Below are positions 4,487 to 48,750 of a DNA stretch of 64,000 nucleotides, piece by piece; the stretch's first letter is position 1; every line of letters starts with the position of its first letter. Made by a program: the position numbers and the translations under genes. A model generated the notes under the pieces. It was not told the origin of the DNA. It did no database searches and saw only the letters and a program-made list of their open reading frames with translations. The stretch is taken from assembly GCA_041665365.1 (NCBI GenBank), contig JBAYIY010000001.1:29041-93040 (forward strand). Reading direction: 5' to 3'. This DNA comes from Patescibacteria group bacterium (GTDB taxonomy: Bacteria; Patescibacteriota; Patescibacteriia; UBA9570).

Positions 4487-5800
4487 CTAGATTAACACAT
4501 ATGGCGGATAATGAAAACGTTTACGCTCGCGCAATGTTTGTTTGTACCATTGCTCTGGATAGGGCTGATGAAGCGCTTGAATTACTGGGTGATCTGGAGC
4601 ATAAGTTTGTATATACAAACGGGCGACACGGTTACGAAGCCAGATTAATTGTTGGAGAGTGGTTTCATGACTGCGATAATCAGGCAGGGTTAATTGTGCA
4701 TCAAGGCTAGTAGCAATGACAGTATCAATTGTGCTCCAATCGAGTTTATTAAACAGTGCGGTTGTTCCAACAATGATGGTTTTATCCGGAAACATTTGTT
4801 TGATCGTTTTATCAATGACGTTAACCGTCCGATTATGCCACAACACCACATGCGTAGCTTCGGCCATGGCGGCCAAGACACCCGGTGCAAACAAAACACC
4901 TGGCGACGAAGCTATAGTGGTAATTTTGGGTAAATAATCTTCCGTTAAAAGCGCAGTAACAATCGGTTGATGCGCCACTTGCTCGGTGCGCGGTGCCATA
5001 CTCAGGTAAACAGCGTAAGTTTGTTTATCCACGACAGTTTGAACGTGATAACGTGGTTTCATATCCCACTGTTCATGAGCAGAATTTTCTGGATCAAGCA
5101 CGATTACTCGCGTTGCCTCGGTTAAAGGTAAAAGCGACAATCTTTTTGTACCAATGAGAACACCAGGCTGATGATTTACTAATACCTGCCATGCCGATTG
5201 AATGGTATCTTTATGTTTAGCTTCGACTACTAGTGGATGATATTGGGCCACAACGCCTGACCAATAGGCTATCTGAGTGTGATCAGGACAAATAATAACC
5301 ACCGGACCCTTTACGTGTTTAATCAAACCAAGCACAACCGCGGCGGCTTCATTACTTCGTTGATAAAGGATTGTACTTGAACTCTGCAATGAGACAACGG
5401 TATCGACAACTTGTTGAATGACCGCTTGGCGTTTTTTTTGAATAACCAAGGCACGCGGTAAGACTGGCTGTGGAGCGGTTTTTAATGCTTTTTTCTTATG
5501 AAACTGCGGGAGACAAGCCAGATAGGCGGATGATAAACTAATCTCATAATGATCGGCTAGCCAATGTAAAAAATTGTTGTATGGCTCTGGTAATTTATCG
5601 GGTAAGACAGTTTCGATCCATTTGGCGGTGGGATAAGGAGTAACATTATTGTCTTGCACAACACCAAGCACACTTGAATTACGCCAGGGAATCATTACCA
5701 ACTGACCTTTAACTAGAGCAGCGGTTGACCGATAGGTAAATTGATCCTTGCCACGAATCACCCGAATCACCGGACTGACCAGTACGTAACAGTCTGACAT
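4487..5800 (-). CDS. PriA-like primosomal protein N' homologue with degenerate helicase motifs
   Basis: N-terminal 3'-DNA-binding-domain-like region ('FTYRSTAALVKGQLVMIPWRNSSVLGVVQD'). Walker-B position reads 'VLDPENS' instead of DEEH. No GxGKT Walker A and no Cys-rich zinc region. Ends at the conserved 'YPP' motif. Conserved priA-def-fmt context. Confidence 0.5.
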   Translation of the reverse strand: MSDCYVLVSPVIRVIRGKDQFTYRSTAALVKGQLVMIPWRNSSVLGVVQDNNVTPYPTAKWIETVLPDKLPEPYNNFLHWLADHYEISLSSAYLACLPQFHKKKALKTAPQPVLPRALVIQKKRQAVIQQVVDTVVSLQSSSTILYQRSNEAAAVVLGLIKHVKGPVVIICPDHTQIAYWSGVVAQYHPLVVEAKHKDTIQSAWQVLVNHQPGVLIGTKRLSLLPLTEATRVIVLDPENSAHEQWDMKPRYHVQTVVDKQTYAVYLSMAPRTEQVAHQPIVTALLTEDYLPKITTIASSPGVLFAPGVLAAMAEATHVVLWHNRTVNVIDKTIKQMFPDKTIIVGTTALFNKLDWSTIDTVIATSLDAQLTLPDYRSHETTLQQLIWLRNRVARLYIQTYAPDHPVIQALHQPYPEQWYKQTLRERKRFHYPPYVLI

Positions 5801-41580: not shown

Positions 41581-41865
41581 TTAGTGTCGATAAATTACTC
41601 TACCTTTAGTTAAATCATACGGGGTCATCTCGAGCGTCACGCGATCACCGGGCAAAACTTTGATCCGATGCATACGCATTTTCCCCGACAGAATACCTAA
41701 TATCTCATGCCCGCTGTCCAGTATTACCCGGAACATGGCATTCGGAAGCATTTCAGTCACCTCACCTTGCATCTCAATAAACCCTTTTTTGGTAGAGCGC
41801 GGTGCGCCACTGCCTGGTTGAGGTTGTACTGGTGCTGGGCGTGAAGTGTTTGAATGATTTGGCAT
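41581..41865 (-). CDS. infA: translation initiation factor IF-1
   Basis: '[31 protein letters not shown]' S1-like IF-1 core. The annotated ORF has a ~20-aa N-terminal extension, so the true start may be internal. Confidence 0.85.
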
Positions 41866-42059: not shown

Positions 42060-42581
42060 TTAGCACTCGTTGGCCAGTTTTGGTTTCGATATCTTTGCGA
42101 GCGTTGCCCAGGCTTTGCGGATTTCAATACTCTTCAGCCGTTGGTTCACCCAATCCGGGCTATAGCCTTTTTTTAAATAGGTTTTTAAAGCTCGACTGAT
42201 AGCTAATTCTGGATCAGCCGTTTCTTCTAAACGTTCATACCCTACCTGTGCCAACCAAAGTTTAAACGGCTCAGCATTTGGTGAGGGAATGGATTGAATT
42301 AGTCGGAGCATAGTTTCGGTATCAGCTGCGTCAGTTATGTAATACTTACCGTCTGATGACTGCAATTTCAGTTGGTGACATTTTGTCACCAACTCACTTC
42401 CCTCTTTACGGAGTCGTTCTGCCAGCTTATTCCAGTACTTCCTAGCATCAACACTGTCAGTTAGGACACGAACCACGTCAATAACCGAAAAGTACCACAA
42501 TTCTTTGTCTGCGTCCCAATGGCGTCTGATCTGGCTACCTTGAAATAAGGCAATGGCTTCTTTTTTAGATTTCATAACCAA
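42060..42581 (-). CDS. Bro-N domain protein (DinD / phage-antirepressor-like)
   Basis: 'IRRHWDADKELWYFSVIDVVRVLTDSVDARKYWNKLAERL' resembles Bro-N/DinD family N-termini. Locally higher GC (~47% by eye). Confidence 0.5.
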   Translation of the reverse strand: MVMKSKKEAIALFQGSQIRRHWDADKELWYFSVIDVVRVLTDSVDARKYWNKLAERLRKEGSELVTKCHQLKLQSSDGKYYITDAADTETMLRLIQSIPSPNAEPFKLWLAQVGYERLEETADPELAISRALKTYLKKGYSPDWVNQRLKSIEIRKAWATLAKISKPKLANEC

Positions 42582-42658: not shown

Positions 42659-43072
42659 CTACCAATTTAAATACGTAATCGTGAGTTGCAATATGGTCGC
42701 GAATGTCACCCACAACAAATAGGGTATCTGAACATACGCCACCCATCGTATCCGGGGATAAATGACTACCATACACCAAATGAGGGTGCTGAGCACTAGG
42801 AGAATATCCACGGCTGCCAGCCAGTTGCTTCTTAGGCCAAACTGAATTGGAGTGAAGACAGCATTAAAGATCAGGTTCAACACAAATGGTACGGCCATCA
42901 TCCGCGGTAATTGTTTCTTCCAGACCATCCAAAATACTGTACCAAACGAAATGGCAATCAATCCGTACAGCACCGTCCACGCTGGGCCAAATAACCAGGT
43001 TGGCGGCGCCCAGGTGGGTTTAATCAATTGTGCATACCAGCTAGGGATGTCCATTAGGTGTAGTATAGTCAA
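42659..43072 (-). CDS. TspO/MBR (tryptophan-rich sensory protein) family membrane protein
   Basis: 'PSWYAQLIKPTWAPPTWLFGPAWTVLYGLIAISF' signature N-terminus and Trp-rich TM helices. Confidence 0.7.
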   Translation of the reverse strand: MTILHLMDIPSWYAQLIKPTWAPPTWLFGPAWTVLYGLIAISFGTVFWMVWKKQLPRMMAVPFVLNLIFNAVFTPIQFGLRSNWLAAVDILLVLSTLIWCMVVIYPRIRWVAYVQIPYLLWVTFATILQLTITYLNW

Positions 43073-43147: not shown

Positions 43148-43429
43148 TTATTTTTTGAACTTTGGCCATCGATTATAACCCACCGACGGATCATTGGATT
43201 TTAACTTTTTTATATAATCAACCTCAATTTTATTTACTTCCTCATCAGGTGCATCTTCAGATTGCCAAAGAATTTCTCGCCGAATAGTAAAATCTTTTTT
43301 ATCAGTGTCTGAAAAATCTTGCTCAAGTATTTTACTATCAGGGCTACCGAAGTATCTAAAAGTCCCGGTCAAATCTTTACCAACATAGATTTTCCCGTTT
43401 GGATATGTGATTTTATATATCCACTTCAT
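43148..43429 (-). CDS. small GIY-YIG nuclease superfamily protein (YhbQ/UPF0213-like)
   Basis: 'WIYKITYPNGKIYVGKDLTG' matches the GIY-(x10)-YIG spacing. No additional domain. AT-rich. Confidence 0.45.
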   Translation of the reverse strand: MKWIYKITYPNGKIYVGKDLTGTFRYFGSPDSKILEQDFSDTDKKDFTIRREILWQSEDAPDEEVNKIEVDYIKKLKSNDPSVGYNRWPKFKK

Positions 43430-43501
43430 ACAGTGTTACTAAGTAAAAAGTTATTGAATAGTTATTTCCGTTAAATTGGTGGGAATGGGGTGAGTGGTTT
43501 C

Positions 43502-43984
43502 CTATCTATTAACTACCGGCAAATATGTGCATCTGCAAAATGGTTTGCCATTTTGATTCATATCATAAGTGCAACGTGGATTTGGTATTGGCATATTTTC
43601 AAAAGCCTCTTTCAAATCAAATATTTTACCGCTATTAATATTACAGTGAATGCAACCTGAATTACATAAAATCTCCACTTTTTCACAGCCCAGTTCCTTA
43701 AGTATTTGCAATTCCAATTTTGCGGCAGCAGCATTTTCTTTAAAACTGTCTTTTCCTTCCTCATTCAGATACAGAGCCATTGTGAAATAAATCATTTTTT
43801 GATCTTGCAGGTCAGTGGTTTTAAGAATTACTAAATTAAACAATGACCATAATGTGTCACCATCAGATGCAGGTTGACCAAATTTCTTTGTTAGCTTTTC
43901 CTTCTGATTCTCAAAATCCTTCCCAGATACACCATAAGCTGATAGAGAATTAAGATATTTTTTTATATAGGCCATAAAACTCAT
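43502..43984 (-). CDS. hypothetical protein with Cys-rich C-terminus (putative metal-binding)
   Basis: C-terminal 'CEKVEILCNSGCIHCN...PRCTYD...FCRCTY' cluster of nine Cys. I recognise no family. Confidence 0.4.
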   Translation of the reverse strand: MSFMAYIKKYLNSLSAYGVSGKDFENQKEKLTKKFGQPASDGDTLWSLFNLVILKTTDLQDQKMIYFTMALYLNEEGKDSFKENAAAAKLELQILKELGCEKVEILCNSGCIHCNINSGKIFDLKEAFENMPIPNPRCTYDMNQNGKPFCRCTYLPVVNR

Positions 43985-44042
43985 TTTAGAATAACATCAC
44001 CACCTTTGGCTATATGATCCAAATTGGAAAATGTTACATTTT

Positions 44043-44780
44043 CTAATAGTGAAAACGTGGGTCAGTTGATAATTCATCCTTCAGCTTCTGATTCTGCTGT
44101 CCTAATTCTTTGAGCCTAGGAATAAAACTATCTATAAATTGCATTTCTTGAGAGTTATTGTTTATGTCATCAAATAAATCCATTAAGCCCATCGCGATAT
44201 TTCCCACCAACCACAAATCAGATTTGACATGTAACTCATCCTCTAAATCAAAATAGGGTGTATCAAATTGCCCTGCAACTCTATTGAAACTGAATGTTTT
44301 CATAGCATAGATAATATTTGAATGTGAAGTGGTCGAATTAATATGATCCTTAATTTTCTGTATGTGGTTAGAACCGTCACGATGATACGTTGTGATCCAT
44401 TTGTACCTTTTATTCTTTAGTGCGTCTGATGCTTTCAGTATTCCTTGTTCATCGTAATCAGCAAAACCATCAACCGACGGATTGGCAATTGCATAAGCAG
44501 CACATGTACCGGCTTCCAAAACCTGACGTAAGTCCATCATGGCTTGCGTGTGATGCAACCTAAGTGCGGAGAATAGGGCAAGTGTGTGATGTTTTCTAAT
44601 CTGTGACAGAAAAATTACAAAAACTCCTAGTTTGGGGCTAACTGACTTCAAAAAAGTATTTAGGAGAGTATTTAAGTTTGATGCATTTAGAAAATGCTCG
44701 TCATATCGTACTTTCCCTTCGAGAACCAGTTTTGTCTCAGTCTCAATAATCTCACCGATAGTTCCCTGCTTGATTCCCAT
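44043..44780 (-). CDS. hypothetical protein
   Basis: Unrecognised 245-aa ORF. Starts 5 bp after the alaS stop. AT-rich (~33% GC by eye). Confidence 0.4.
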   Translation of the reverse strand: MGIKQGTIGEIIETETKLVLEGKVRYDEHFLNASNLNTLLNTFLKSVSPKLGVFVIFLSQIRKHHTLALFSALRLHHTQAMMDLRQVLEAGTCAAYAIANPSVDGFADYDEQGILKASDALKNKRYKWITTYHRDGSNHIQKIKDHINSTTSHSNIIYAMKTFSFNRVAGQFDTPYFDLEDELHVKSDLWLVGNIAMGLMDLFDDINNNSQEMQFIDSFIPRLKELGQQNQKLKDELSTDPRFHY

Positions 44781-44785
44781 AAATA

Positions 44786-46552
44786 TTAACTCTCCTCCAC
44801 CACCGCCTTAATCCGCCTCACGCCAGCGGAACAAGCTTCTTCCTTCAGGATCTTAAAGTGACCAACCTCTTGAGTATTGTTCACATGCGGGCCACCGCAG
44901 AATTCTTTGGAGAAATCACCAACGATGTAGACTTTCACTTTGACGTCGTACTTGCTATCGAATAAACCAATGGCTCCCAGCTTATGGGCTTCTTCCACAC
45001 TCATGATTTCATAATGCACCGGCAAAGCACGTTTAACTTGTTCGTTGACCATGTCTTCAACTTGTTTAAGTTGTTCAGTGGTCATTTTTTCGGGGTGGGA
45101 AAAATCGAAACGGAGACGCTCCGGGGTGATGTTGGAACCTTTTTGGTAGACATGCGGACCGAGGATGCGGCGGAGGGATTCTTGCAATAAGTGTGTGGCG
45201 GTGTGACCGCGGATGGTTTCCCAGGAGGCATCGGCTAGACCACCTTTGAACCGTTTTTGGGCACCAGCGCGGGATTGCTCTTGGTGTTGTTTATAAAAAT
45301 CATTGAAGCCATCTTCATCTATCGTCAGGTTTTTTTCTTTGGCCATTTCTTGAGTAAATTCTAAGGGGAAACCATACGTATCAAAGAGATGAAAAGCATG
45401 CTCCCCCAACATAACTCCACCACGAGGAATGTTTACAGTGAGCCTATCGAACTGTTTTTCCCCTTTTTCTAAAGTCTTGGCAAATTTTTCTTCTTCATTA
45501 ACTAACTCTAGTTTGATTTCGGAACGTAAATCATTAAATTTCGGATAATATTGTTTGAACATATCAATAACGATGTCGGCTAGGTCTTGTAAAAAATAAC
45601 CTTTGATACCTAATTTACGTCCATGACGAATAGCGCGGCGAATTAAACGACGCAATACATAACCTTGATCGATATTTGAAGGTGAGGCACCATCGCAAAT
45701 CATAAATGTAGCAGCGCGAACGTGATCGCAGATTATTTCCTTTGAAGTATCCCCGTGGGTGGTGGCCAGTTGATTGATTTTATCCATGATTGGGACAAAC
45801 AAATCGGTTTTATACACCTCGTCTAAACCATTGAGCACAGCGGTGACGCGTTCTAAGCCCATGCCGGTATCAACATTTTTTTGTTTAAGCGGTTCAAATT
45901 TTCCATCGGCCGTTTTTGAATACTGCATGAACACATCATTCCAAATTTCCACATACTTACCACACGAACAACTTGGGTCACACTCGGGTTTACATTTTTC
46001 TATGCCGACATCATAAAACATTTCGGTGTCTGGTCCACATGGGCCGGTCACACCAGCTGGACCCCACCAATTTTGCGCTTTGGGAAAAAAATAAATGCGT
46101 TCATCGGGAATACCTAGGTTGCGCCATAAAATAGCTGATTCATCATCACGCGGGGCATCGGCGTCACCGGCAAACACACTAACCGATAACCGCTCCACTG
46201 GGATGCCGAGCCAGTCTTTGCTGGTTAAAAATTCAAAACTCCAAGTGATGGCTTCTTTTTTAAAATAATCGCCTAACGACCAATTGCCTAACATTTCAAA
46301 AAAAGTTAGATGCCAGCGATCACCGACTTCTTCAATATCACCAGTGCGCACACATTTTTGCACATCAGTTAAACGCACCCCTGCCGGATGTGGTTCCCCC
46401 ATTAAATACGGTACCAATGGGTGCATACCGGCCGTGGTAAACAACACCGTTGGATCATTGTCCGGAATCAACGAGGCCGAACCAATAATGGCGTGATTCT
46501 TACTCGAAAAAAAATCTAAATACTTCTGCCTTATTTCATGTGAAGTAATCAT
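44786..46552 (-). CDS. alaS: alanyl-tRNA synthetase (catalytic + editing domains, lacks C-Ala domain)
   Basis: Class II catalytic core ('FTTAGMHPLVPYL', 'FEMLGNWSLGDYFK') and editing-domain 'HTATHLL' / 'CGGPHV' motifs. Only 588 aa. Confidence 0.85.
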   Translation of the reverse strand: MITSHEIRQKYLDFFSSKNHAIIGSASLIPDNDPTVLFTTAGMHPLVPYLMGEPHPAGVRLTDVQKCVRTGDIEEVGDRWHLTFFEMLGNWSLGDYFKKEAITWSFEFLTSKDWLGIPVERLSVSVFAGDADAPRDDESAILWRNLGIPDERIYFFPKAQNWWGPAGVTGPCGPDTEMFYDVGIEKCKPECDPSCSCGKYVEIWNDVFMQYSKTADGKFEPLKQKNVDTGMGLERVTAVLNGLDEVYKTDLFVPIMDKINQLATTHGDTSKEIICDHVRAATFMICDGASPSNIDQGYVLRRLIRRAIRHGRKLGIKGYFLQDLADIVIDMFKQYYPKFNDLRSEIKLELVNEEEKFAKTLEKGEKQFDRLTVNIPRGGVMLGEHAFHLFDTYGFPLEFTQEMAKEKNLTIDEDGFNDFYKQHQEQSRAGAQKRFKGGLADASWETIRGHTATHLLQESLRRILGPHVYQKGSNITPERLRFDFSHPEKMTTEQLKQVEDMVNEQVKRALPVHYEIMSVEEAHKLGAIGLFDSKYDVKVKVYIVGDFSKEFCGGPHVNNTQEVGHFKILKEEACSAGVRRIKAVVEES

Positions 46553-46590: not shown

Positions 46591-48750
46591 TTATTGTCTT
46601 TTTGTTCTTAATGCACTGTGCAATTCATCAAATCGTTTTATAATGGTGTAGTCATCTAGTGCAGCCGTCATGGCTTCATAATTATCTGCGTTTAATTTAC
46701 GCAAAATTTCGCGGGCTTTTTCAATGATCGTCGAGGACTTACCGGGACGAATCATTCGTTCGAGGTGGCGTAATCCACTGGATCGTTGCACTAGATATCG
46801 CAATTCGGCAGCATCTTCTGGCTTGATATCAGGAGAAAAATCAATCAATAATGCTGGTAGAACTTCACGTAAACGTGTCCGAAATTTAGGGCTGTCTTTT
46901 AAGAGGCGATCAAACTCTGAGCGTCCTTTCAATTCTTCATACACTTGTTTTTGTAAGGTGTTGTCTTTAAAAATAAATTTATCAACATGATAATCACTGA
47001 GTGATGCGCTTCTAAGATAGGATCGAATAATTTTTTGAAAATTTATAATAGGATCACGTTGGGCAATTTGGTACACGATTTCTATTTCTGTATGATCCGC
47101 CTTATCGGCGATGGTTTGATATTGTTCATTAATCGCCGCTGCTAGTCCGTCAGGCAATTCTGCTGGAACACCGTGTTGTCGCATTAATTCAACAACCTTC
47201 GATGTAAAAAACACGCGTTCTTTGGCACGGGTTTGTTCGTGAATAATGTTCGCAGAAAACTGTTGTCCGATGGCTATGATACGATTATCTTCTACCTGAC
47301 TTAAATCATAGGTGGTTCCAAACTGCTGAATGGCTAAACTTCGATAATAATCTTGTTCTGCAACGCTCAAAGAAGTAACTGGAGGAAGTTCAGCTGGTGC
47401 TTCGTTGCTGCCATCAATTTTCACCATATAATATTCAAGAATATCTTTTAATTGCTCGGAATGATGCGGAGCAGTCAGAGGCATATCAAGGGCAACGGCT
47501 CTAACGACAGGCTCCATACGTAATAGAGTATGATCTAAACCGATAATTTTTTTTGTATCCAGATCTCGTTTTGCCCACGTAGCATCCGTTATAACGGAGT
47601 TAGCTGATCCATCGCGTGTCACGGTCACAAATGAATTCCAGGCGTGCCCAACTTTATTTAAATTATGTGATAAATAATCATCTCGTTCTGGAGCAAAAGA
47701 GTCATCACCCTGCTCAAAAAGAGCGTAAGTATTACGTAATCGATTATATTGAGTTTGATTGGCTTTAAGTGCCTCAAACACACCTTTAACAGCACTGGCA
47801 AAATTCCGACACACTCCATTACCTTCCCAAGTAGGGTCGGTTCGTCTTTGTAAACCTTCTTGCAATAACTGTAACACTGTACTTTGATCAGCTACAGTAT
47901 CTTGACCGACTACTAAATCACCCCGCTCAGCTTTAGTATCACTCCATTTATATTTCGTTAAATCAACTACCAAACTAGTAGCTAATTCTACGGCTTGACT
48001 AGGCGACAATGCATCTAATTCTTTTATCCCCAATCCTTTAGCAATTTCAGCTCCTTCCCCTTTTATATATTTTATAATAAAATTATATAGTTTCTTTTCC
48101 CAACCTCTTTCTTTAATTGTTTCTTGATAAGTTTTAGCGCTTGGTGCAGTTCCATCTAGACGACCGTCGCTCATTAAATATTTTTCGACTGAAGCAGGGA
48201 TAGGATGAGCCTGTTCCGCTGCAGCTACCTGGGGATGAAAAGACTTTAATTCTGAAAAAGCGATCGTATTATCTGGTGAAGGTTGTAGTCTGAGTAATGG
48301 ATGATCAATGACACGTTCTTCGGCTTCAACTGTTGTTAAAAAATAGGCTTTGGCTTCATCCCAAGTATCAAAAATAAAAGAGGTTGTAGCTAAATAATAT
48401 CTGCCAGTTTCATCTATTCCGCCCGGTACGGTCACTTTATAACGGCCATCCGCTTCTAACTTAATGTTGAAAAAATGATCGCCGGCATAGGTTTTATCTA
48501 ATGAAGCACGCTCGGTTGCAATGCGCACATCATTTTTTGATATTTCAACGCGCGCTCTGGCTGTCGCTTCATCTTCAAATCGTTCTTGACATGTTCCAAC
48601 TATTGAACCATTTGAGCTATCAATCAAGCCAGGTAACGACACTTCGAATTTTCCATCGACCGCAACTATACTATATAGCTCTCGCCCATTTGGATTTATA
48701 AATAAGTCCCTCTTTCTTTCACTAGCTCTAATTGATTCAGAGGTAATCAT
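46591..48750 (-). CDS. large cytoplasmic protein with central transglutaminase-like Cys-His-Asp (papain-fold) core
   Basis: 'GNGVCRNFASAVKGVF' (Cys), 'VGHAWNSFVTV' (His) and 'ITDATW' (Asp) have transglutaminase-like spacing. There are ~300 aa of unrecognised N-terminus and ~320 aa of unrecognised C-terminus. The N-terminus 'MITSE' copies the alaS 'MITSH'. Confidence 0.55.
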   Translation of the reverse strand: MITSESIRASERKRDLFINPNGRELYSIVAVDGKFEVSLPGLIDSSNGSIVGTCQERFEDEATARARVEISKNDVRIATERASLDKTYAGDHFFNIKLEADGRYKVTVPGGIDETGRYYLATTSFIFDTWDEAKAYFLTTVEAEERVIDHPLLRLQPSPDNTIAFSELKSFHPQVAAAEQAHPIPASVEKYLMSDGRLDGTAPSAKTYQETIKERGWEKKLYNFIIKYIKGEGAEIAKGLGIKELDALSPSQAVELATSLVVDLTKYKWSDTKAERGDLVVGQDTVADQSTVLQLLQEGLQRRTDPTWEGNGVCRNFASAVKGVFEALKANQTQYNRLRNTYALFEQGDDSFAPERDDYLSHNLNKVGHAWNSFVTVTRDGSANSVITDATWAKRDLDTKKIIGLDHTLLRMEPVVRAVALDMPLTAPHHSEQLKDILEYYMVKIDGSNEAPAELPPVTSLSVAEQDYYRSLAIQQFGTTYDLSQVEDNRIIAIGQQFSANIIHEQTRAKERVFFTSKVVELMRQHGVPAELPDGLAAAINEQYQTIADKADHTEIEIVYQIAQRDPIINFQKIIRSYLRSASLSDYHVDKFIFKDNTLQKQVYEELKGRSEFDRLLKDSPKFRTRLREVLPALLIDFSPDIKPEDAAELRYLVQRSSGLRHLERMIRPGKSSTIIEKAREILRKLNADNYEAMTAALDDYTIIKRFDELHSALRTKRQ

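What the first reader, a model, noticed from the sequence alone, without database searches (positions are those of the whole stretch)
43502..44780. AT-rich two-gene module tightly coupled to the alaS stop: 245-aa unknown plus 160-aa Cys-cluster protein
The 245-aa ORF begins 5 bp after the alaS stop. The 160-aa ORF follows after 58 bp. Neither resembles a known family to my eye. The smaller one ends in a dense Cys array (C-x7-C-x3-C-x2-C ... C-x...-C-x-C) suggesting a metal-binding or redox module. Their AT-richness is distinct from the flanking genes. Small unknown/Zn-binding pairs adjacent to nuclease-like genes (GIY-YIG at 43148-43429) are a recurrent theme in uncharacterised defence or toxin-antitoxin loci.
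Basis: inference. Interest (0 to 1): 0.55.

Follow-up and report, generated by a model that had tools for sequence, protein, structure and literature searches.

The report
Two unrelated accessory genes after alaS
The two small genes behind alaS are real but are not a conserved pair. One belongs to a widespread, mobile, unannotated family with a HEPN-like (RNase-toxin-like) fold that often sits inside restriction-modification operons. The other is a stand-alone zinc-cluster relative of the phage MuF/gp7 head protein.

Summary
On the minus strand, a 245-aa ORF (A) starts 5 bp after alaS. A 160-aa Cys-rich ORF (B) follows 58 bp later. Both lie in the most AT-rich 1.6 kb of the window. The "two-gene module" reading fails. 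With profile HMMs, none of 63 loci holding an A homologue has a B-family gene within 5 kb. None of the 13 B-family loci examined has A.

ORF B (pLDDT 96) is a remote, non-phage relative of the MuF/SPP1 gp7 head-morphogenesis domain. Four Cys are invariant. Most family members carry an extra N-terminal zinc ribbon.

Best reading: two independently acquired accessory genes. A is probably a latent HEPN-like nuclease. B is a Zn-stabilised binding module. Interest is moderate to low.

The parts
44786..46552 (-). alaS (588 aa, short form). This is the upstream housekeeping gene that ORF A is tightly coupled to. It is not part of the accessory islet.
   Evidence: Pfam tRNA-synt_2c E 3.5e-141 and tRNA_SAD E 5e-17. 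GC 0.441.
44043..44780 (-). ORF A, 245 aa. It belongs to an unannotated, horizontally mobile family with a HEPN-like all-alpha fold. It is a putative latent nuclease or Abi-type effector.
44553..44561 (-). Codons for R74-L-H76 at the junction of helices 49-73 and 77-99. R74 is 99% and H76 is 98% conserved. This is candidate active-site element 1.
   Evidence: Conservation over 169 unique sequences. Secondary structure.
44322..44351 (-). Codons for K144...N148-x4-H153 at the end of helix 134-151. H153 is 100% conserved. This is candidate active-site element 2. It is a possible degenerate counterpart of the HEPN R-N-x3-4-H motif, with Ile147 in place of Arg.
   Evidence: The mapping onto the HEPN motif is inference; coordinates of the model were not available.
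43502..43984 (-). ORF B, 160 aa (probably 157 aa starting at 43975). It is a stand-alone MuF/gp7-like domain: five helices plus a C-terminal Cys-cluster module.
   Evidence: AF2 pLDDT 96.4. 19 of 44 family members hit PF04233 below threshold. Foldseek BFVD top hits are MuF/minor capsid proteins. hhalign against the gp7 family gives E 3e-5.
43529..43654 (-). Codons C111 to C152: C-x2-C ... C138 ... C150-R-C152, a putative Zn(Cys)4 knuckle.
   Evidence: C111, C114, C138 and C150 are invariant and C152 is at least 90% conserved in 44 sequences. In the alignment, B C111 and C114 lie opposite the second Arg and the His of the gp7 stretch R-T-R-A-G-H, and F-C-R-C lies opposite C-N-C-R-C.
43148..43429 (-). 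93-aa GIY-YIG-like mini-ORF with the same GC (0.333) as ORF B. It is possibly a homing-endonuclease catalytic-domain remnant acquired together with B.
   Evidence: TIGR01453 E 0.004; phrog_314 and phrog_7168 E 4-7e-4. GC. No homologue near any A or B locus.
43148..44400 (.). AT-rich core of the islet (GC about 0.33-0.35).
42659..43072 (-). TspO/MBR membrane protein at host-like GC. It recurs within 5 kb of ORF A homologues in three other genomes.
   Evidence: Pfam PF03073 E 1.3e-30. tblastn hits in L066, L017 and L037.
42060..42581 (-). Truncated Bro-N protein (173 aa, TTG start) that matches PADLOC defence candidate PDC-S13. It is the last gene before the infA-rpsM operon promoter.
   Evidence: PDLC04920 E 1.9e-76, covering 3-155 of 286. 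phrog_15286. An 11/12 sigma-70-like site at 41987-41959.

Best explanation
The stretch between alaS and the infA-rpsM operon of this Patescibacteria genome is a small accessory islet. ORF A and ORF B are two unrelated genes that arrived and function independently. They are not a toxin-antitoxin or two-component defence pair.

ORF A belongs to a horizontally mobile family. The family rides at the end of serine-recombinase elements, nests between hsdM and hsdS of type I R-M operons, or lodges directly behind strongly expressed housekeeping genes. Here it sits behind alaS, with which it is probably co-transcribed and translationally coupled.

The ORF A fold is HEPN-like. I infer that it is a latent, self-contained nuclease, most likely an RNase. 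I infer that it uses a non-canonical His/Arg/Lys/Glu site (R74, H76, E89, K144, N148, H153). It would act as a second-line abortive-infection effector, in the manner of solo HEPN Abi proteins and R-M-linked anticodon nucleases.

ORF B is a stand-alone, non-phage relative of the MuF/SPP1 gp7 head-morphogenesis domain. A Cys4 zinc site probably stabilises it, and it most likely binds nucleic acid or protein rather than catalysing a reaction. The window copy is the short form, without the N-terminal Com-like zinc ribbon that most family members carry.

Shown: the gene anatomy, the composition, the family sizes, the lack of co-occurrence, the neighbour statistics, the fold similarities and the remote MuF homology. 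Inferred: nuclease activity, defence role, Zn binding and co-transcription with alaS.
For: No pairing:
- 0 of 63 A loci have a B-family ORF within 5 kb, and 0 of 7 B loci have A (tblastn and HMM).
- Further B contexts also lack A.
- Neighbours of B share no similarity with each other.

ORF A:
- Homologues at 50-60% identity occur in CPR, DPANN archaea, Alpha- and Gammaproteobacteria, Lentisphaerae and Binataceae. There is also a distant copy on Caulobacter plasmid pCB4, beside an AbiEii TA system.
- AF2 pLDDT is 93.
- 16 polar residues are at least 93% conserved over 169 sequences, which is enzyme-like.
- Among 144 nearest neighbours in 58 loci, the commonest Pfam families are large serine recombinase (8-9), type I R-M S (5), M (4) and R (3-4), and polA (3).
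- A lies between hsdM and hsdS in L009, L014, L016 and L043. It lies behind dnaK in L085.
- HEPN families embedded in R-M operons, and families lacking the canonical motif, are documented (PMC3710099). A solo HEPN Abi is documented (HepS, PMC13043305).

ORF B:
- AF2 pLDDT is 96.
- 19 of 44 family members hit PF04233 below threshold.
- Nearly all Foldseek BFVD top hits are MuF, minor capsid or head-morphogenesis proteins, with probability 0.9-1.0.
- hhalign against a 9-sequence gp7 alignment gives probability 73%, E 3e-5, over 119 columns.
- Four Cys are invariant.

Composition: the islet is the lowest-GC 1.6 kb of the window.
Against: ORF A:
- No HEPN Pfam model is matched. Only 1 of 56 members hits AbiU2, at E 0.017, which is noise level.
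- The defining Rx4-6H motif is not conserved. The only R-x4-H in this sequence (R134...H139) is not shared by the family.
- PADLOC has no match.
- Many A loci show no defence genes nearby at all.

ORF B:
- MuF similarity is sub-threshold in Pfam. Foldseek E-values are only about 2e-3, with TM about 0.34.
- No context has portal or terminase genes.

General:
- A lineage-specific functional link between A and B in this one genome cannot be formally excluded.
Confidence: 0.6

Rival explanations
1. ORF A and ORF B form a two-gene toxin-antitoxin or defence module: an unknown effector plus a Zn-binding partner working together, possibly with the adjacent GIY-YIG nuclease.
For: The genes share a strand, are 58 bp apart and lie in one AT-rich block. 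Defence-flavoured neighbours are present: a GIY-YIG-like ORF and Bro-N/PDC-S13.
Against: The two families never co-occur. 0 of 63 A loci and 0 of 13 B loci carry the other gene. The GIY-YIG ORF has no homologue in any A or B locus. A (GC3 0.358) and B (GC3 0.280) differ in composition. There is no antitoxin-like RNA, repeat or Rfam hit.
Confidence: 0.05
2. ORF A is not a HEPN-type nuclease. It is a different helical-bundle enzyme, for example metal- or cofactor-dependent, using E15, H76, E89, H153 and D178 as ligands. Its role would be metabolic or stress-related, possibly connected with TspO and tetrapyrroles.
Against: The top-ranked structures are consistently HEPN, not ferritin-, DinB- or heme-oxygenase-like. 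There are no ExxH pairs. The patchy, HGT-type distribution does not look metabolic. Neither does the placement next to recombinases and inside R-M operons. Most loci have no TspO.
Confidence: 0.2
3. ORF B, the GIY-YIG mini-ORF and the truncated Bro-N are decaying leftovers of a phage or other mobile element, with no current function. ORF B would be a relic MuF head-protein fragment.
For: All three carry phage-typical domains. B and the GIY-YIG ORF share an identical, very low GC (0.333). Bro-N covers only half of its model. The GIY-YIG ORF has only the catalytic domain.
Against: ORF B is full length relative to its own family. That family has 1549 cluster representatives, invariant Cys and other residues, and intact ORFs in many non-phage contexts. 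No portal or terminase gene is seen in any B locus, including the single IMG/VR hit. There is no match in 50,697 phage genomes.
Confidence: 0.12
4. ORF A is an accessory or split-off domain of the short AlaRS, because it starts 5 bp after the alaS stop.
For: The coupling is tight. AlaRS is only 588 aa and lacks a C-terminal C-Ala/DHHA1 domain.
Against: A homologues follow hsdM, polA, dnaK or priA, or are next to recombinases. None of the 70 other loci has alaS nearby. The fold is all-alpha and HEPN-like, not C-Ala-like. The distribution is sporadic.
Confidence: 0.02

Closest known systems
Solo HEPN abortive-infection nucleases, e.g. HepS of the Gifsy-1 prophage (PDB 9oik; PMC13043305)
   Different: HepS has a canonical R100-x4-H105 motif and a demonstrated anticodon-nuclease activity triggered by a phage tail protein. 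The ORF A family lacks a conserved Rx4-6H. It has no sequence-profile match to any HEPN family, and no activity or trigger is known.
R-M-embedded HEPN genes and anticodon nucleases (PrrC/RloC type; AbiU2, AbiD/F and AbiJ families 'in R-M operons', PMC3710099)
   Same: It is inserted between hsdM and hsdS of type I R-M operons in at least four genomes (L009, L014, L016, L043). This is the classical position of restriction-linked second-line effectors.
   Different: Only a minority of A loci (about 5 of 58) are R-M-embedded, and the window copy has no R-M genes nearby. There is no ATPase or regulatory domain as in PrrC. Homology to these families was not detected by sequence.
HEPN families without the canonical motif (AF0298-like HEPN-T, Parep1/8; PMC3710099)
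   Same: The best structural match is AF0298 (2hsb). Like those families, A keeps an invariant His together with conserved basic residues elsewhere.
   Different: The positions of the conserved residues (R74-x-H76; K144/N148-x4-H153) could not be mapped onto those families' alternative sites. A is twice the size of a minimal HEPN domain and has extra helices and a small beta insertion.
Phage MuF / SPP1 gp7 head-morphogenesis domain (Pfam PF04233, PF06152; PMC5576092)
   Same: The ORF B family aligns with gp7 residues 134-275, including the G-K and C-R-C motifs (hhalign E 3e-5). Predicted structures of phage MuF proteins are its best matches in BFVD. gp7 is described as a DNA-binding, portal-binding protein.
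   Different: It is never next to portal or terminase genes, whereas 85-87% of muf genes are. It is absent from 50,697 phage genomes by tblastn. It is much shorter. The Arg and His of gp7 that align with B C111 and C114 are replaced by a C-x2-C pair, giving a full Cys4 site. Most family members add an N-terminal Com-like Zn ribbon or TM helices, and rarely DnaJ or TerB_N.

Membership tests
HEPN superfamily (ORF A) | Four-helix up-and-down bundle fold superposable on solved HEPN domains | tested here: met
HEPN superfamily (ORF A) | Conserved Rx4-6H catalytic motif at the helix-3/helix-4 junction | tested here: not met
   No R-x(4-6)-H is conserved in 169 sequences. The only instance in the window protein (R134-x4-H139) is not conserved. 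The invariants are R74-x-H76 and N148-x4-H153.
HEPN superfamily (ORF A) | Sequence-profile match to a curated HEPN family | tested here: not met
   There is no Pfam, NCBIfam, PADLOC or PHROG HEPN hit for the query. 1 of 56 members hits HEPN_AbiU2 at E 0.017, which is expected by chance. The PDB profile search found no HEPN chain.
HEPN superfamily (ORF A) | Metal-independent endoribonuclease activity; dimer with a composite active site | not testable with these tools
   This needs biochemistry or a multimer model.
HEPN superfamily (ORF A) | Genomic association with R-M, Abi or TA systems and mobile elements | tested here: met
   Neighbour census: serine recombinase 8-9, HsdS 5, HsdM 4, HsdR 3-4 among 144 neighbours in 58 loci. 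On plasmid pCB4 it lies beside AbiEii.
MuF / SPP1 gp7 head-morphogenesis domain, PF04233 (ORF B) | Pfam PF04233 or PF06152 match above the gathering threshold | tested here: not met
   The query has no hit. 19 of 44 family members hit PF04233, but the best is E 9e-4, below the cut-off. P0195 scores 21.5 bits against a cut-off of 29.6.
MuF / SPP1 gp7 head-morphogenesis domain, PF04233 (ORF B) | Profile-profile and structural similarity to bona fide MuF proteins, including the C-terminal G...C-R-C core | tested here: inconclusive
MuF / SPP1 gp7 head-morphogenesis domain, PF04233 (ORF B) | Encoded next to portal or terminase genes in a phage or prophage packaging module | tested here: not met
   None of the B-family loci has such neighbours. 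There is no tblastn match in INPHARED phages and only one IMG/VR contig, which shows no structural genes.
Two-gene toxin-antitoxin or defence module (A+B) | Co-conservation of the two genes as neighbours across genomes | tested here: not met
   0 of 63 and 0 of 13 loci.
Zn(Cys)4 knuckle or ribbon (ORF B C-terminus) | Four conserved Cys ligands brought together in space and binding Zn | tested here: inconclusive
   C111, C114, C138 and C150 are invariant and C152 is at least 90% conserved. A small beta module is predicted at 102-156 with pLDDT above 90. Geometry and metal content could not be checked.
GIY-YIG nuclease (93-aa ORF 43148-43429) | GIY-x9-11-YIG motifs plus the conserved Arg, Glu and Asn; profile match | tested here: inconclusive
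   It has IY(4-5)...YVG(15-17) spacing. Profile hits are sub-threshold only (TIGR01453 17 bits against 56; phrog_314 E 3.6e-4). There is no Pfam PF01541 hit.
AlaRS accessory domain (ORF A) | Homology to AlaRS editing or C-Ala domains, or conserved linkage to alaS | tested here: not met
   There is no such Pfam hit. alaS is absent from all other A loci.

The most novel reading that the evidence does not exclude
ORF A would found a new, widespread family of single-gene, R-M-linked abortive-infection nucleases. The family is found in CPR, DPANN and Proteobacteria. It would have a HEPN-like fold and a re-invented active site (R74/H76/E89/K144/N148/H153 instead of Rx4-6H), and it would spread by lodging behind essential genes.

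Independently, the ORF B family (more than 1500 clusters) would be a host-domesticated MuF head-protein domain. It would act on phage portals or DNA as a decoy or sensor, which would be a previously unrecognised class of phage-derived cellular proteins.
Probability: 0.2. Interest if true: 0.6.

Novelty: new variant of a known kind. Interest (0 to 1): 0.35.

Why it matters
The two-gene module is not real, so the main value is corrective. Two by-products may be useful.

1. ORF A defines a sizeable family that no curated library captures. It has an enzyme-like conservation pattern and a HEPN-like fold without the HEPN motif. It recurs inside type I R-M operons and beside serine recombinases. It also occurs in cultivable hosts (Bradyrhizobium sp. 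AT1, Caulobacter henricii pCB4), so it is a tractable candidate for a new solo defence effector.

2. ORF B shows that the MuF/gp7 head-morphogenesis domain has a large non-phage branch with a Cys4 site, usually fused to a Com-like zinc ribbon. The biochemical role of MuF itself is still poorly understood. A small soluble cellular homologue with a very confident model could help define what the domain binds.

Neither point overturns current understanding.

Tried and rejected
- **Library scans.** Pfam, NCBIfam, PADLOC and PHROGs gave nothing above threshold for A or B. The weak hits to Ribosomal_L27_C, SEFIR and GBR2_CC were dismissed as coiled-coil or compositional noise.
- **PDB sequence-profile search.** A gave only an aldehyde decarbonylase at E 0.035. 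B gave nothing.
- **Internal duplication in ORF A (tandem HEPN dyad).** hhalign of the N-half against the C-half gave probability 0.15%. Rejected.
- **afdb50 fold library.** Unavailable.
- **ORF A in IMG/VR and INPHARED.** No relatives.
- **ORF B in INPHARED.** None.
- **Flanking repeats, att-like sites, promoters and terminators around the islet.** Nothing above chance.
- **Type III-antitoxin-like RNA or repeats.** None.
- **A C-rich motif that seemed to follow the B and GIY-YIG stop codons.** Not significant.
- **Close relatives of the alaS locus in metagenomes, to date the insertion.** The scan errored and consumed the cap.
- **HEPN family alignments from the supplement of PMC3710099.** Not held as text.
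- **A conserved partner for either gene.** Clustering of 220 A neighbours and 13 B neighbours found none.
Full report
**1. The observation**

All genes lie on the minus strand.
- alaS is 44786-46552, 588 aa. Pfam tRNA-synt_2c scores E 3.5e-141.
- A 245-aa ORF (ORF A, 44043-44780) follows after 5 bp. A GGAGGAG lies inside the alaS 3' end.
- A 160-aa ORF (ORF B, 43502-43984) follows 58 bp later. Its homologues and the NCBI gene call start at Met4, giving 157 aa.
- Cys residues of B are at 100, 107, 111, 114, 138, 150 and 152.
- GC is 0.377 for A, 0.333 for B and 0.333 for the next 93-aa ORF, against 0.414 for the window. The stretch 43148-44780 is the lowest-GC 1.6 kb of the whole 64 kb, about 3 sd below the mean.
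- Neither ORF matches Pfam, NCBIfam, PADLOC or PHROGs.

A source name on the identical database protein places the contig in a Patescibacteria (CPR) MAG.

**2. Are the two genes a module? No.**

ORF A has more than 273 homologues at about 50-60% identity. ORF B has six close homologues. A profile of those finds 1549 50%-identity cluster representatives.

I collected 63 loci with an A homologue and 7 with a B homologue, each with up to 5-6 kb of flank where the contig allowed. tblastn and family HMMs over all ORFs find no locus with both. Six more B contexts also lack A.

The genes flanking B differ in every case. They include a Pro/Glu-rich 285-aa protein, a HATPase/DUF4325 protein, unknowns, and PD-(D/E)XK and NucS-like nucleases. 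They share no similarity with each other.

The 93-aa GIY-YIG-like ORF has no homologue near any A or B locus either.

**3. ORF A**

*Distribution.* The family occurs in 56 species-representative genomes. These cover many Patescibacteria, the DPANN archaea Pace- and Woesearchaeota, Alpha- and Gammaproteobacteria including Bradyrhizobium sp. AT1, Lentisphaerae, Binataceae and Prolixibacteraceae. A 26%-identical copy lies on Caulobacter henricii plasmid pCB4, next to an AbiEii/AbiGii toxin-antitoxin pair. There are none in IMG/VR or in 50,697 phage genomes. High identity across such distant hosts implies horizontal transfer.

*Neighbours.* I took 144 nearest neighbours (plus or minus 1 or 2 genes) in 58 non-redundant loci. 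The commonest Pfam families are:
- large serine recombinases (Resolvase 9; Recombinase and Zn_ribbon_recom 8), mostly convergent and abutting the 3' end of A;
- type I R-M subunits (Methylase_S 5, HsdM 4, HsdR 3-4);
- DNA polymerase I (3).

In L009, L014, L016 and L043 the gene sits between hsdM and hsdS. Elsewhere it directly follows polA, dnaK (L085) or priA/typA (L007), as it follows alaS here. In a crude ORF-based count, 10 of 37 same-strand upstream gaps are 15 bp or less.

*Conserved residues.* Over 169 unique sequences, E15, K63, S71, R74, H76, Q79, R85, Q86, E89, K144, N148, H153 (100%), N155, D178, K186 and N230 are at least 93% conserved. That is an enzyme-like pattern. The defining HEPN motif Rx4-6H is not conserved, and the single R134-x4-H139 of this sequence is private.

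Two candidate sites remain:
- R74-x-H76, at the junction of helices 49-73 and 77-99;
- I147-N148-x4-H153, at the end of helix 134-151. This looks like a canonical R-N-x3-4-H with Arg replaced, and has invariant K144 nearby and E89 on the preceding long helix.

There is no internal duplication.

*What the literature allows.* HEPN families that lack the canonical motif but keep alternative His or basic residues are described (AF0298-like, Parep1/8). So are HEPN genes embedded in R-M operons as a suicidal second line of defence (PMC3710099). A solo HEPN Abi, HepS, is an anticodon nuclease kept latent until a phage protein binds (PMC13043305).

*Mechanistic commitment.* ORF A is most likely a latent, self-contained nuclease of HEPN-like architecture acting as an Abi-type effector. 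I give about 0.5 to the nuclease and defence part and about 0.9 to "mobile accessory gene unrelated to ORF B and to AlaRS".

**4. ORF B**

*Three weak, independent lines point to the phage MuF/SPP1 gp7 head-morphogenesis domain.*
- 19 of 44 family members give sub-threshold PF04233 hits. P0195 and P0132 hit Phage_Mu_F and Phage_min_cap2. The query itself grazes TIGR01641 and phrog_595.
- Nearly all of the roughly 45 best Foldseek hits in BFVD are annotated as minor capsid, MuF-like, head morphogenesis or GpF-like proteins. Probability is 0.9-1.0, but E is about 2e-3 and TM about 0.34.
- hhalign of the family against nine gp7-family proteins fetched from phage genomes gives probability 73%, E 3e-5, over 119 columns. 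B residues 39-160 align with gp7 134-275. In that alignment, C111 and C114 of B lie opposite the second Arg and the His of the gp7 stretch R-T-R-A-G-H, and F-C-R-C lies opposite C-N-C-R-C.

*How it differs from bona fide muf genes.* Of those, 85-87% lie beside portal or terminase genes (PMC5576092). No B locus has phage structural genes.

*Family architecture.* The typical form is an optional TM helix, then an N-terminal Zn ribbon (CPYC...RKxKCPxC...YVRT; JGI names include "phage FluMu protein Com"), then this domain. Fusions to DnaJ or TerB_N are rare. The window copy is the short form.

*Mechanistic commitment.* gp7 is described as a DNA-binding, portal-binding protein (titles cited in PMC5576092). 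ORF B is therefore most likely a Zn-stabilised nucleic-acid- or protein-binding module of phage ancestry, now cellular, with about 0.5 confidence. A catalytic or redox role is less likely, because only the four or five Cys and a few Pro, Gly and Arg residues are invariant in the module.

**5. The islet as a whole**

Downstream of B come the following.
- The GIY-YIG-like mini-ORF, with the same GC as B, so possibly co-acquired with it.
- TspO (PF03073, host-like GC).
- A truncated Bro-N protein matching PADLOC candidate PDC-S13 (E 1.9e-76, half of the model).
- The best sigma-70-like site of the region, in front of infA-rpsM.

No flanking repeats, terminators above chance, Rfam hits or tandem repeats were found.

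In a Moranbacteria genome (L066), a 131-aa remnant of A lies about 0.7 kb upstream of a TspO that is 64% identical to the window's. A different 188-aa gene lies between them. TspO is also within 5 kb of A in L017 and L037. A 60%-identical Bro-N lies 2.5 kb from A in L009. This suggests that A and TspO were neighbours before B and the GIY-YIG ORF were inserted, but I could not test it. The metagenome scan for close alaS relatives failed.

**6. Verdict**

- Observation: confirmed.
- Interpretation: partly supported. The genes are foreign, the setting has a defence flavour and the Cys site is metal-type. They are not a pair.
- Each gene is a new variant of a known kind: a HEPN-like fold without the HEPN motif, and a MuF-like domain outside phages.
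- Interest is moderate to low (0.35). The most novel reading still open is a new solo R-M-linked nuclease family together with a domesticated MuF branch. I give it about 0.2.

Noticed in passing
window 42659-43072; L066 6103-6507; L017 164-535; L037 9617-10003: TspO/MBR genes lie within 5 kb of ORF A homologues in the window and three other genomes, about 4 of 59 loci. In L066 (Moranbacteria) TspO is 64% identical to the window's. There it lies about 0.7 kb downstream of a truncated 131-aa ORF A remnant, with a different 188-aa gene in between. This may be old A-TspO synteny or a shared variable hotspot. It is unexplained.
   Followed up: partly
window 42060-42581 (-); L009 2033-2908: The 173-aa TTG-start ORF matches PADLOC defence candidate PDC-S13 (E 1.9e-76) and phrog_15286, but covers only the N-terminal half (Bro-N) of those models. 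A full-length 291-aa homologue (60% identity) sits in the same type I R-M island as an ORF A homologue in L009.
   Followed up: partly
window 44786-46552 (-): AlaRS is only 588 aa. It has the catalytic domain and a short editing region ending in tRNA_SAD, with no C-Ala/DHHA1 domain. I did not determine whether this is typical of the lineage or a consequence of the downstream insertion.
   Followed up: no
window 46591-48750 (-): The 719-aa ORF immediately upstream of alaS has no hit in Pfam, NCBIfam, PADLOC or PHROGs.
   Followed up: no
window 41581-41865 (-): The infA ORF as listed is 94 aa, with a Pro/Gly-rich extension of about 30 residues before the IF1 core. The true start may be the internal Met. 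The only strong sigma-70-like site of the region (TTGACA-17-TATACT, 41987-41959) lies upstream of it.
   Followed up: no
L085 5001-5771; L038, L046 and L062 (match about 5001-5717, 1950-2660 and 5001-5719); L007 5001-5738: ORF A homologues repeatedly sit directly behind conserved housekeeping genes. Examples are dnaK (in hrcA-grpE-dnaK), polA in three Alphaproteobacteria, the priA/typA interval, and alaS here. This suggests insertion at operon ends so as to borrow their expression.
   Followed up: partly
L072 785-1330; L084 1-576; L070 2328-3788; L071 9712-12525: PD-(D/E)XK (Cas4/AddB-like, DUF2779) nuclease genes lie next to or near ORF B-family genes in four of about 13 contexts. In the window the adjacent gene is a GIY-YIG-like nuclease. 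The nucleases are not similar to each other by blastp, so this may be coincidence within variable islands.
   Followed up: partly
proteins P0127-P0274 (ORF B family representatives): Most family members carry an N-terminal zinc ribbon (CPYCxxxLxKxPxRKxKCPxCxxxIYVRT) and a 'LVTEEEA' linker. Some have one or two N-terminal TM helices. Rare giants fuse DnaJ plus a double zinc ribbon (P0142, P0209) or TerB_N (P0236).
   Followed up: partly
L066 3144-4703: The 519-aa protein upstream of the ORF A remnant in L066 looks like a MORC/HATPase-type ATPase by eye. It ends with an R-x4-H (RCDLIH) stretch, which could be a canonical HEPN tail. This was not checked against any library.
   Followed up: no
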